NCBI GenBank assembly: GCA_964525635.1
Contig: CAZGJX010000087.1
Coordinates: 1 to 18,539 of the forward strand
Source of the DNA: an uncultured archaeon
Lineage (GTDB): Archaea > Asgardarchaeota > Lokiarchaeia > Sigyniarchaeales > SOKP01
Length of the DNA stretch: 18,539 nucleotides
Reading direction: 5' to 3'
Under the pieces are notes generated by a model. It saw only the letters and a list, made by a program, of their open reading frames with translations, made no database searches and was not told the origin of the DNA. Of the stretch, positions 1,149 through 4,167 are shown one piece after another (position 1 is the stretch's first letter; the number at the start of each line of letters is the position of its first letter). The position numbers were made by a program, and so were the translations under genes.

Positions 1149-2261
1149 ATGAGAGAAATTGTTATATCATCTGTCGCCATTTATATTGTTTCGATTTTTG
1201 TTTTTGCTGTAGTATCTTTGTATTTTTTTATTTTTTTCCTCAAAACTTATATTAAAACTAAACAAAAAATGTTTGGTTATTTATCAGTTTATTTTTTAAC
1301 TCATATACTTGCTAATATATTTGGCATCTCAAAACTCTCCTCAAATGGAGATATAGCAACAAATTTCCATATATTAAATAAAATATTTGAAATGTTAGTT
1401 TTATTAGTCCTTATTTTACTTCTTGAAGTATTTGAAAAAAATATTCAATTCTCAACTAAACAAACTATTATGACTATGTTAATTTTTACTATAATTGGAG
1501 GTTTTATCTCAGATCCACCTAGTAGAGATGATTTTCTTAACTATTTTAATATATTTACTTATCATGGAAGTCCAATTTTAATTCTTCAAGCTATTTTTTA
1601 TATATTAACGGTCTTTTGGTTAGCTATAATGCTCTATAGAAGTAAAAAAAAAGCATGGTCATTAAAACAAAAAACCTTTATGTCTAGGCTTATAGTTGGT
1701 GTCTTTCTTTCAATTTCTTCTGCACTTATTCCAGTTTTAGTAGAAATTACAGATCCTTTTGAATATGGGACTTTATTTGTTATTATTGTAACTATAACCT
1801 TTATGGTTCAACATTTTGGGGTATATATAAATGGATATGCTTTTCTCAAAGTATGGAAAAATCCTTGGTTATTACAAAGACAGAAAATTCATTTACTTTT
1901 AGTATTCAATAAAAATGGGATTGAATTATTTACTAAATCATTTGATAGAGAACTTAATCTAGGAGATTCTGTTCTAATAGGAGGAGTCTTCTCAGGTATT
2001 AATTCATTAATTCAGGAAACAACAAAAACTAAAACTCATATTGAATCTATTAATTTGAAAGGGAAGGAGCTAAGATTTATTACAAGAGAAAACTTTGTAA
2101 GTGCTATTATTATTGATTATTCCACTCAAGCATCTGAAATTGCCCATAACAAATTTGCAAAGGATTTTGAAAAAAAATTTTCTAGAAATTTGGCAGTTCT
2201 CCAAGGTCAAACTTCAAATTTTAGCTCAGCTGAAGAGATAGCACTGACTTATTTTTCATAG
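1149..2261 (+). CDS. Seven-TM membrane protein with C-terminal longin-like domain
   Basis: About seven hydrophobic helices in aa ~1-235. The soluble ~125-aa tail (IHLLLVFNKNGIELFTKSF...LIGGVFSGINSLIQE...IESINLKGKELRF...FAKDFEKKF) follows the beta-beta-alpha-beta-beta-beta-alpha pattern of Asgard longin domains. Confidence 0.75.
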   Translation: MREIVISSVAIYIVSIFVFAVVSLYFFIFFLKTYIKTKQKMFGYLSVYFLTHILANIFGISKLSSNGDIATNFHILNKIFEMLVLLVLILLLEVFEKNIQFSTKQTIMTMLIFTIIGGFISDPPSRDDFLNYFNIFTYHGSPILILQAIFYILTVFWLAIMLYRSKKKAWSLKQKTFMSRLIVGVFLSISSALIPVLVEITDPFEYGTLFVIIVTITFMVQHFGVYINGYAFLKVWKNPWLLQRQKIHLLLVFNKNGIELFTKSFDRELNLGDSVLIGGVFSGINSLIQETTKTKTHIESINLKGKELRFITRENFVSAIIIDYSTQASEIAHNKFAKDFEKKFSRNLAVLQGQTSNFSSAEEIALTYFS

Positions 2262-2505: not shown

Positions 2506-4167
2506 ATGAGTAATGACATGGATATTATTAAGGAACTTGAAAAGATAACTGAAAAAAAATTTGCAGAATATACTTCATTATATGATGATGATATGAATTA
2601 TCATTATATTACTAAAGATAACAATGTTATTGAAATAAGTTTAGATATAATGAAATTAAATTTAAATGATAAGAAACTTGAACTCGTAGATAAAGTTATT
2701 AAAAAATTACATAATTTAAAAAGACTTAATATAATATACAGTAAAAATAATGAACTCCCAGAATGTTTAAAAGATTTTATTAATTTAGAGCATTTAAGTT
2801 TATATAATAATAAATTGGCATCACTTCCCAATTGGATTGGAGAATTCAAACATTTAAAGACCTTAAATCTAGAAGGAAATAATTTAATTAATATACCTGA
2901 CGTCTTTAAGAATTTTAATAACCTTGAATACCTAAACCTTACTAAAAATGATATATCTGATTTATCAGATTGGTTATTAACTCTAAATAATTTAAATAAT
3001 CTCTTACTAAAGAATAATTTTAACCTTAAATGGAATCAGAAGAATTTAAAGATTTTAAAACAACTACATAGTAAAGGAACTAAAATAGAAGCACCTGAAA
3101 TATTTTCTCTTCAAATTCAAAATAATCTTCCTGAGGAACAAATAGAATTAATAAGAGATTTTGAAAAAGAAAAAATAGAAATGAATAAAAAAGGAAAATA
3201 TACAAATCCACTCAATATAAAAATAGTTGATGGGAAAATAGTTAAATGGAGAATGTTTGAATATTCTTTTACATCCTTACCTGATAATTTTGGTGTCTTT
3301 AAAGATTTAAAATCATTAGAAATAGTGAATACTCCCCTTGAGAATCTTCCTGATTCTTTTGGACAACTAACAAATTTAGAATATCTTGATTTATCTAATT
3401 GTTCTCTTAGTTCTCTACCAGACTCATTTGTTAATTTAATTTTAATTTCCAAATTAAAATTAAATAATAACAAGTTTAATGAGATTCCTACACCTTTATG
3501 GGCGCTTAATGAATTAGTAGATTTAGATCTTACAAACAATCCTATAAGTGATGAAGAAAAGAATATTATGCAGAAAGCTCCAGATACAATAAGAGAATAT
3601 CTAAGAAAGAAGGCAACAATTAAAATCTTTATATCTCATGCAGTTATTGACTTTAATCCATACCGAATAAAGGAAATTGTAGAATATTTAGAGAAACAAA
3701 AAGAAATCTCTGAAGTATTCTTTTGTGAAGAAGATCTTGCTGGAAATATTGACGAATGGATGTTAAACGCCGTACAGAAATGTCAATTACTATTATTTAT
3801 AGGTACGAACAAATCCGTTTTTAATTCACCTGACTGTGCTAATGAATTACAACTTGCTGATAAATTTTCTATCCCCGTGATTCCTATCAAAGGGGATGAT
3901 GTAGATTGGCCAGATTTAGCTAAAATTAATTTATCTAGGGAATTAGGTCTCGAATATGATATAGATAATTTTGATGAATTCAGCAGCAATCTTTACAAAT
4001 ATATAGAGAATTTTAAACGAGAAATTGATTTAATGAGTAAAGAAGGTAGGGTAAAAGGTATTACAGATATTTATGAACGATTCCGTCTCATATTAGATGA
4101 AACTGTTGGCGATTTAAAAAATAAAATAACCCTACTTGAAAAAAGAATTGAGAACCTTGAAAAATAA
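2506..4167 (+). CDS. Leucine-rich repeat protein with C-terminal TIR domain and coiled coil
   Basis: Two blocks of LxxLxLxxNxLxxLP repeats. TIR motifs start at ~3619 (KIFISHA...SPDCANEL..A...IPVIPI). Heptad tail LKNKITLLEKRIENLEK. No TM segment or signal peptide. Confidence 0.9.
   Translation: MSNDMDIIKELEKITEKKFAEYTSLYDDDMNYHYITKDNNVIEISLDIMKLNLNDKKLELVDKVIKKLHNLKRLNIIYSKNNELPECLKDFINLEHLSLYNNKLASLPNWIGEFKHLKTLNLEGNNLINIPDVFKNFNNLEYLNLTKNDISDLSDWLLTLNNLNNLLLKNNFNLKWNQKNLKILKQLHSKGTKIEAPEIFSLQIQNNLPEEQIELIRDFEKEKIEMNKKGKYTNPLNIKIVDGKIVKWRMFEYSFTSLPDNFGVFKDLKSLEIVNTPLENLPDSFGQLTNLEYLDLSNCSLSSLPDSFVNLILISKLKLNNNKFNEIPTPLWALNELVDLDLTNNPISDEEKNIMQKAPDTIREYLRKKATIKIFISHAVIDFNPYRIKEIVEYLEKQKEISEVFFCEEDLAGNIDEWMLNAVQKCQLLLFIGTNKSVFNSPDCANELQLADKFSIPVIPIKGDDVDWPDLAKINLSRELGLEYDIDNFDEFSSNLYKYIENFKREIDLMSKEGRVKGITDIYERFRLILDETVGDLKNKITLLEKRIENLEK

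What the first reader, a model, noticed from the sequence alone, without database searches (positions are those of the whole stretch)
2506..4167. Soluble LRR-TIR-coiled-coil protein: Toll-like domain order without TM or NTPase
Seen: two LRR blocks, then a cap (NNPIS...PDTIREYLRK) resembling the one before the Roc domain in Roco proteins, joined directly to a TIR domain. The TIR retains the predicted catalytic Glu (DCANE447L, codon 3844-3846) and is followed by a terminal coiled coil. Established: prokaryotic and plant TIRs are oligomerisation-activated NADases; LRR-then-TIR is the Toll-like receptor order; prokaryotic versions commonly have Roc-COR or STAND domains in between. Inference: a minimal cytoplasmic pattern-recognition immune receptor in an Asgard archaeon.
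Basis: partly seen in the sequence, partly recalled or inferred. Interest (0 to 1): 0.75.

Follow-up and report, generated by a model that had tools for sequence, protein, structure and literature searches.

The report
Asgard soluble LRR-TIR sensor protein
This gene of a Loki-type Asgard archaeon encodes a soluble protein that joins two variable leucine-rich-repeat blocks directly to a well conserved TIR domain and a helical tail. It looks like a one-chain sensor-effector of the innate-immune kind, but its catalytic motif is unusual and its function is untested.

Summary
ORF 2506-4167 (+) encodes a 553-aa soluble protein. It has two capped LRR modules of the SHOC2/Roco type, then a TIR fold joined two residues after the LRR cap, then a 41-residue heptad helix. 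The TIR model has pLDDT 91 and matches SPARTA, plant and SARM1 TIRs at Z about 14. Glu447 (codon 3844-3846) aligns with the catalytic Glu of TIR-1/SARM1 and AbTir and is kept in 137 of 140 relatives.

Three things fit a diversifying sensor-effector:
- The family is confined to Loki-type Asgard genomes and is patchy within them.
- Copies sit in different neighbourhoods, sometimes in tandem, and some are decayed.
- The LRR part is about 36% identical between orthologs and varies most on its concave face, while the TIR and tail are about 76% identical, like HdrA.

Against this, no defence model matches and the window is not a defence island. The active-site helix reads D-C-x-x-E, not W-x-x-x-E. 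It lacks the aromatic residue found in all cyclic-ADPR-making TIRs and carries the plant-type Cys, so the chemistry is open.

The Toll-like resemblance is domain order only: there is no membrane segment, and ancestry was not tested. This scan has noted the same family repeatedly on other DNA. No paper searched describes it.

The parts
2506..4167 (+). Whole gene, 553 codons plus stop at 4165-4167. An alternative start lies at Met5 (2518).
2506..2709 (+). N-terminal cap of module 1 (residues 1-68): helix 4-15, beta-hairpin 33-47, helix 55-65
   Evidence: AF2 full-length model
2710..3024 (+). LRR block 1 (residues 69-173), five 23-residue repeats. This is the most variable part between orthologs.
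3025..3300 (+). Cap helix of block 1, helical linker and second beta-hairpin (residues 174-265)
3301..3546 (+). LRR block 2 (residues 266-347), four repeats, homologous to block 1
3547..3618 (+). SHOC2/Roco-type LRR C-cap (residues 348-371, NNPIS...PDTIREYLRKK). It ends two residues before the first TIR strand.
3619..4023 (+). TIR domain (residues 372-506): betaA FISHA, BB-loop Gly413, alphaC, betaD, alphaE
3832..3846 (+). alphaC motif D443-C444-A-N-E447. E447 (3844-3846) sits at the catalytic-Glu position, D443 at the place of AbTir W204, and C444 at the place of the plant TIR Cys.
4039..4161 (+). C-terminal long helix (residues 512-552) with heptad pattern. It contains the motif DIYERFRL (521-528), invariant in the orthologous group.

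Best explanation
This is a single-chain cytoplasmic sensor-effector. The concave faces of the two LRR modules bind a variable ligand, most likely a protein of foreign origin or a marker of stress. Binding releases or re-orders the rigidly attached TIR domains so that they pair and form a composite active site around Glu447. The TIR then hydrolyses NAD+ or a related nucleotide without cyclising it, which arrests the cell or marks the infected state. The heptad tail holds the chains together or keeps the TIR inhibited until the ligand arrives. Shown here: the domains, the fold, the conserved Glu, the variable-sensor/conserved-effector pattern, and the accessory-gene distribution. Inferred: ligand binding, oligomerisation, the substrate, and the defence role.
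For: The TIR fold matches enzymatic TIRs (SPARTA, RUN1/RPV1, RPS4, SARM1, TIR-1, AbTir) at Z 12-14. E447 aligns with the Glu of TIR-1 'KEL' and AbTIR 'YEL' and is present in 137 of 140 relatives. The betaA motif FISHA is the same as in AbTIR, and the BB-loop Gly413 is kept in 112 of 140. The LRR part is a median 36% identical and the TIR-tail 76%. The concave x positions carry 2.37 bits of entropy and the convex ones 1.67 (Mann-Whitney p 2.5e-5). TIR-tail conservation equals that of HdrA (74-87%) across the same genomes. The family is patchy: 52 of 301 genomes of the phylum match, nearly all in one family, and the orthologous type is missing in two of three same-genus genomes. Flanks are not shared with the same-genus G019 or with the P0003 and P0070 loci. 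Tandem duplicates occur in G204 and G216, and copies with internal stops occur, including C68 in this genome. The genome also carries TPR-TIR, WD40-TIR and TIR-LRR-Ras proteins, so the effector recurs on different sensors. A precedent for a helical domain that inhibits a TIR NADase is AbTir (bioRxiv 10.64898/2026.10.06.757174).
Against: No PADLOC model matches. The neighbours are an SDR, a 7TM protein, an ABC transporter and Hdr-type genes, which is not a defence island. D443 occupies the position of AbTir W204. An aromatic residue is found there in every TIR that makes a cyclic ADPR, and L6 W131A and ROQ1 W82A lack NADase activity. No member of this family has an aromatic there. AbTir K202, which binds the diphosphate, has no counterpart. 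The residue mapping rests on weak sequence alignments (E 0.3-1.6) backed by the fold match. No downstream signal receptor is adjacent. Very strong TIR-tail conservation would equally fit a conserved cellular partner.
Confidence: 0.45

Rival explanations
1. The TIR is an enzyme with a different chemistry. It would act on RNA/DNA or NAD-capped RNA, or make 2',3'-cyclic nucleotides as plant TIRs do, not deplete NAD+ or make cyclic ADPR.
For: C444 is present in 137 of 140 relatives. It aligns with AbTIR T205, the position of the conserved plant Cys (L7 C132, RBA1 C83). [quoted passage not shown] The NAD-stacking Trp is replaced by Asp. Plant TIRs are among the top fold matches. TIR proteins, including one archaeal protein, decap NAD-RNA (PMC10937652 abstract).
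Against: Fold scores do not separate plant from bacterial or animal TIRs: Z is 14.3 for SPARTA, 14.1 for RPV1 and 13.3 for SARM1. Plant TIRs keep the Trp as well as the Cys. No nucleic-acid-binding feature was tested.
Confidence: 0.2
2. The protein is a cellular signalling component of the expanded Asgard LRR/small-GTPase network, not an antiviral one. The LRRs bind host partners and the TIR-tail docks on a conserved host factor.
For: The TIR-tail is as conserved as HdrA. The tail motif DIYERFRL is invariant. The LRR is of the SHOC2/Roco type, which scaffolds Ras/PP1 signalling. The same genome has a TIR-LRR-Ras/Roc protein. There is no defence context here.
Against: The gene is absent from many complete genomes of the same family and genus. 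Contexts vary, and tandem and decayed copies occur. The concave face is hypervariable. These features are unusual for a fixed cellular pathway.
Confidence: 0.2
3. The TIR is a non-enzymatic adaptor that only nucleates homotypic assemblies, as in TLR/MyD88.
For: MyD88 and Hydra TRR-2 TIRs also match (Z about 13). The WxxxE aromatic is missing.
Against: Near-invariance of E447, C444, S437, S441 and Gly413 across 140 relatives points to a conserved pocket, not only a surface. No other TIR adaptor partner is encoded nearby.
Confidence: 0.1

Closest known systems
Enzymatic TIR effectors coupled to a sensor (SPARTA TIR-APAZ, SARM1/TIR-1, plant TNL TIRs such as RUN1/RPS4, AbTir)
   Same: The fold matches at Z 12-14. 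The Glu lies at the catalytic position, the betaA FISHA motif and the BB-loop Gly are present, and a sensor is attached to the TIR. A helical or coiled-coil accessory is present, as in AbTir.
   Different: The sensor is a short double LRR fused directly to the TIR, with no Argonaute, ARM-SAM or NB-ARC. The alphaC motif is DCxxE, not WxxxE. Sequence similarity to solved TIRs is at noise level (E 0.3-1.6).
Animal Toll-like receptors
   Same: The N-to-C order is LRR then TIR.
   Different: There is no signal peptide or membrane segment. The LRRs are of the cytoplasmic SHOC2/Roco type with their own caps. The TIR keeps an enzyme-type Glu. Common ancestry was not tested.
Roco proteins (LRR-Roc-COR, e.g. 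C. tepidum Roco, LRRK2)
   Same: The LRR type and C-cap match, and Roco is the best full-length fold match (6hlu, E 3e-13). The TIR sits where Roc sits.
   Different: There is no Roc GTPase and no COR domain.
Thoeris (ThsB TIR plus ThsA effector)
   Same: Both use a prokaryotic TIR with a catalytic Glu in a presumed conflict role. B. cereus TIR appears among the fold matches.
   Different: There is no adjacent effector gene. The aromatic residue tied to cyclic-ADPR signal production is absent. PADLOC Thoeris models do not match.

Membership tests
TIR domain superfamily | Flavodoxin-like five-strand alpha/beta TIR fold | tested here: met
   The AF2 model has pLDDT 91.3. VIA Z is 12-14 over 125-137 residues at rmsd 2.3-3.0 to many TIRs. 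The Foldseek top matches are TIRs.
TIR domain superfamily | Match to a Pfam TIR model (TIR_2, PF13676) | tested here: inconclusive
   The protein's own sequence gives no TIR_2 match, only DUF4062 at E 0.009. TIR_2 is matched by 24 of 31 orthologous C-termini (best 7.3e-9) and by 54 of 85 family representatives (best 5.4e-31).
Enzymatic (NADase-type) TIRs | Catalytic Glu in alphaC | tested here: met
   E447 aligns with the TIR-1 'KEL' and AbTIR 'YEL' Glu. It is present in 137 of 140 relatives.
Enzymatic (NADase-type) TIRs | Aromatic residue four positions before the Glu (WxxxE), required for cyclic-ADPR products | tested here: not met
   D443 lies at that position. The family has D, A, N, P, R or E there and never an aromatic. 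The requirement comes from bioRxiv 10.1101/2022.05.07.491051.
Enzymatic (NADase-type) TIRs | NAD+ cleavage activity | not testable with these tools
   This needs a biochemical assay.
Toll-like receptors | Extracellular LRR ectodomain, one membrane helix, cytoplasmic TIR | tested here: not met
   The highest 19-residue hydropathy mean is 1.13, the N-terminus is hydrophilic, and the LRR cap runs straight into the TIR.
Roco proteins | Roc GTPase with COR domain after the LRR | tested here: not met
   P0001 has no Roc, Ras or COR match. A separate TIR-LRR-Ras/Roc protein exists on contig C25.
NLR / STAND receptors | Central NACHT or NB-ARC NTPase | tested here: not met
   Pfam and NCBIfam find no NTPase domain. 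None appears among the 25 commonest Pfam families of 85 relatives.
Known anti-phage defence systems (PADLOC-DB 2.0) | Match to a defence protein model | tested here: not met
   No family matches at E up to 1.
Thoeris | TIR gene next to a ThsA-type effector | tested here: not met
   The flanks hold a 7TM protein and an ABC transporter. There is no small or effector ORF in the 244- and 254-bp spacers.

The most novel reading that the evidence does not exclude
The Loki-type LRR-TIR family is a distinct catalytic class of TIR, with D-C-x-x-E combining the plant-type Cys with loss of the NAD-stacking Trp. On this reading it makes a product, or uses a substrate, not yet described for TIRs, and it represents an archaeal single-chain pattern-recognition receptor relevant to how LRR and TIR modules came together in eukaryotic immunity.
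Probability: 0.12. Interest if true: 0.8.

Novelty: new variant of a known kind. Interest (0 to 1): 0.45.

Why it matters
TIR enzymes fused to sensors are central to immunity in bacteria, plants and animals, and Asgard archaea are the closest known relatives of eukaryotes. A large Asgard-restricted family joins a diversifying LRR sensor directly to a strongly constrained TIR with an altered catalytic motif. Such a protein would be a simple system for asking two questions: how ligand binding switches a TIR on, and what chemistry a Trp-less, Cys-bearing TIR performs. The Asgard defence survey that was read (PMC11291487) does not list it. It does not by itself show ancestry of Toll-like or plant receptors.

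Tried and rejected
- **Sequence searches for the TIR.** The C-terminus alone and two family profiles were searched against PDB sequences. Only noise-level matches came back: a mitochondrial CDP-DAG synthase, coiled coils, and TIR-1/AbTIR at E 0.3-1.6. The fold search was needed to settle the TIR. A bridging attempt through a paralog TIR (P0268:1-135) found no TIR in PDB by sequence.
- **Homodimer prediction.** Complex prediction on two copies of residues 365-553 scored 0.06 against a mark of 0.42, a 'no answer' verdict. It is not used as evidence either way.
- **Partner gene.** Earlier notes of this scan mention a small Sm-like partner or a paired dead-TIR partner. Neither is next to this gene.
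- **Conserved synteny.** None was found with the same-genus G019, P0003 or P0070 loci. A sub-lineage (14 of 39 loci) has an N6_Mtase/Eco57I-type methylase nearby, with GNAT, AMP-binding and enoyl-CoA hydratase genes. This is not a coherent defence island and is not present here.
- **Viral carriage.** No copy was found in IMG/VR.
- **Downstream ABC ATPase.** Its PADLOC hits (mad3, AriA and others) are generic ABC-ATPase similarity, and a permease gene follows it. It was rejected as defence context.
- **Wider locus search.** The search for related loci with the wider TIR alignment failed for lack of a conserved stretch.
- **Literature.** No paper holds both 'Lokiarchaeota' and 'TIR domain'. The Asgard defence survey mentions no LRR-TIR.

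Full report
**The gene.** The window has an open frame at 2506-4167 on the plus strand, giving 553 aa from an ATG start. An identical database protein is called from Met5 and has 549 aa. The gene stands alone: AT-rich spacers of 244 bp and 254 bp flank it and hold no credible small ORF. Upstream lies a 7TM protein with no Pfam match. Downstream lie an ABC ATPase and its permease. The genome is 4.45 Mb with GC 26.8%. Record names of the closest proteins and loci are Promethearchaeota/Lokiarchaeia MAGs.

**Anatomy.**
- Pfam finds LRRs in two blocks.
- The full-length AF2 model (65-sequence alignment, pLDDT 88.9) shows two similar modules. Each has a helix, a beta-hairpin, four or five 23-residue LRRs and a cap helix. 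The two halves are homologous (BLASTP E 2e-11).
- The LRRs are of the SHOC2/Leptospira/Roco type.
- The best full-length fold match is the LRR-Roc-COR fragment of C. tepidum Roco.
- The cap helix ends at residue 369 and the first TIR strand begins at 372, so the TIR occupies the place of Roc.
- There is no hydrophobic segment (maximum 19-residue Kyte-Doolittle mean 1.13) and no NTPase domain.

**Is the C-terminus a TIR?**
- By its own sequence it is not recognisable. It gives no TIR_2 match and only DUF4062 at E 0.009. PDB sequence searches give nothing significant.
- 24 of 31 orthologous C-termini do match TIR_2, as do 54 of 85 wider relatives (best 5.4e-31).
- The AF2 model of residues 365-553, built on 140 diverse relatives, has pLDDT 91.3.
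- Foldseek ranks SARM1, SPARTA, TcpB, MyD88 and RPP1 TIRs first.
- VIA-align gives Z 12-14 over 125-137 residues at rmsd 2.3-3.0 to SPARTA, RPV1/RUN1, RPS4, SARM1, TIR-1, Hydra TRR-2 and AbTir.
- The fold is settled.

**Active site.**
- E447 is at codon 3844-3846.
- A TIR-only family profile aligns, weakly but in the expected register, with C. elegans TIR-1 and with AbTIR. The family Glu falls on the 'KEL' and 'YEL' Glu of those enzymes.
- Across 140 relatives the signature is F375-x-S377-H378, G413, S437, S441, D443-C444-x-x-E447-L448, A451, P460 and W468. E is present in 137 of 140, C in 137 of 140 and D in 107 of 140. No aromatic residue ever occupies position 443.
- In the AbTIR alignment D443 lies on W204 and C444 on T205.
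- Manik et al. report that W204 stacks on the nicotinamide mimic. An aromatic residue is present there in all cyclic-ADPR-producing TIRs, and L6 W131A and ROQ1 W82A lose NADase activity.
- The pocket is therefore conserved and enzyme-like, but it is not a standard WxxxE NADase pocket. The residue mapping is inference from weak alignments supported by the fold match.

**Tail.** Residues 512-552 form one long helix. Core hydrophobic residues fill 67% of a/d positions against 20% elsewhere, and 100% against 6% in the last 24 residues. Orthologs differ by 7-residue indels that keep the register. The motif DIYERFRL (521-528) is invariant in 65 orthologs but not in the wider family. A homodimer prediction gave no verdict.

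**Family and distribution.**
- More than 150 clusters at 90% identity share the TIR-tail at 70-86% identity.
- In 1.84 billion representatives only 643 match at E up to 0.001.
- Among 85 representatives, 58 carry LRRs, a few carry WD40, LVIVD or TSP3 repeats, and no NTPase family is among the 25 commonest.
- Across one genome per species of bacteria and archaea, the two conserved peptide patterns retrieve 39 loci. Nearly all are labelled Promethearchaeota. The odd labels (Odin, Hermod and one 'Nanopelagicaceae') are probably naming or binning issues.
- Within the phylum, 52 of 301 genomes match, 46 of them in the window's own family. The orthologous type (E below 1e-100) is present in only one of three other genomes of the same genus.
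- Tandem duplicates (G204, G216) and copies with internal stops occur.

**Evolutionary pattern.**
- The LRR part is a median 36% identical to orthologs and the TIR-tail 76%.
- Column entropy falls from 1.9 bits in LRR block 1 to 0.56 in the TIR.
- Within the repeats, concave-face x positions are more variable than convex ones (2.37 vs 1.67 bits, p 2.5e-5; the columns are not independent).
- For scale, HdrA from this window is 74-87% identical to its orthologs in five genomes of the family.
- The LRR-TIR similarities in the same genomes (51-62% overall) do not follow the HdrA order. The same-genus copy is not the closest.
- Flanking genes are not shared even within the genus or with two other loci.
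- This is the profile of an accessory, diversifying sensor with a tightly constrained output module.

**Own-genome repertoire.** The TIR profile finds about ten copies:
- five or six LRR-TIR proteins, on C54, C16, a tandem pair on C67, and C68, which is broken by a TAA;
- a TPR-TIR on C163;
- a WD40-TIR on C97;
- a membrane/zinc-ribbon-TIR on C59;
- a TIR-LRR-Ras/Roc protein on C25.

**Context and defence evidence.** PADLOC has no model for the protein. The window is not a defence island. No viral contig carries a copy. In 14 of 39 related loci an N6_Mtase/Eco57I-type methylase is nearby, but otherwise the neighbours are metabolic.

**Literature and earlier notes.** The Asgard defence survey does not mention LRR-TIR proteins, and no paper holds both 'Lokiarchaeota' and 'TIR domain'. 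This scan has noted the same family many times on other DNA. Its leads were checked here. The missing signal-making residue was confirmed as D443. A small partner gene or a paired dead-TIR partner is not present at this locus.

**Verdict.** The most likely reading (0.45) is a single-chain LRR sensor coupled to an enzyme-type TIR in a conflict or stress role. The substrate and product are open because of the DCxxE motif. Rivals are an alternative TIR chemistry (0.2), a cellular signalling role (0.2) and a non-enzymatic adaptor (0.1). It is a new variant of a known kind, a repeat sensor plus a TIR effector, and not a Toll-like receptor, Roco or NLR member.

Noticed in passing
G000 contig C67:17045-21852 (loci L013, L014): Two adjacent LRR-TIR genes (854 and 774 aa). 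One TIR matches the family profile at 1e-50 and the other at about 1e-24. The same pairing recurs in at least seven other genomes (G216, G204, G252, G186, G174, G165, G282). Earlier notes of this scan describe such active/dead pairs.
   Followed up: partly
G000 contigs C163, C97, C59, C25 (L015-L018): The same genome carries TPR-TIR (889 aa), WD40-TIR (467 aa), a membrane/zinc-ribbon-TIR (310 aa) and a TIR-LRR-Ras/Roc protein (502 aa). All keep a Glu at the alphaC position.
   Followed up: partly
G000 contig C68:508-2001 (L019): An LRR-TIR paralog is interrupted by an in-frame TAA inside the TIR, probably a decaying copy.
   Followed up: no
window 16889-17311 (+): A 140-aa NADAR-domain protein (PF08719, E 9e-30) that also matches PADLOC candidate PDC-M42C. 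NADAR domains are linked to NAD/ADP-ribose metabolism. It lies 12.7 kb from the TIR gene, with no evidence of linkage.
   Followed up: no
window 1149-2261 (+): A 370-aa multi-pass membrane protein with a soluble C-terminal domain lies directly upstream. It has no Pfam or PADLOC match and is not found next to orthologs elsewhere.
   Followed up: partly
window 9812-11620 (-): Two same-strand ORFs with HdrA-type FAD and 4Fe-4S domains are separated by only 15 nt.
   Followed up: no
window 13854-16205 (+): Two consecutive ORFs carry caspase-like pieces (Peptidase_C14, then C13-like), TSP3 repeats, a membrane segment and three zinc ribbons. This may be one split or frameshifted gene.
   Followed up: no
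L053 (DATKTW010000024.1): A contig labelled 'Candidatus Nanopelagicaceae bacterium' carries a copy 70% identical in the TIR-tail. This is most likely a mis-binned Loki-type contig.
   Followed up: no
L020:10354-12429 and 13 other related loci: An N6_Mtase/Eco57I-type methylase of about 690 aa lies close to the ortholog in 14 of 39 loci of other genomes, but not in this window.
   Followed up: partly
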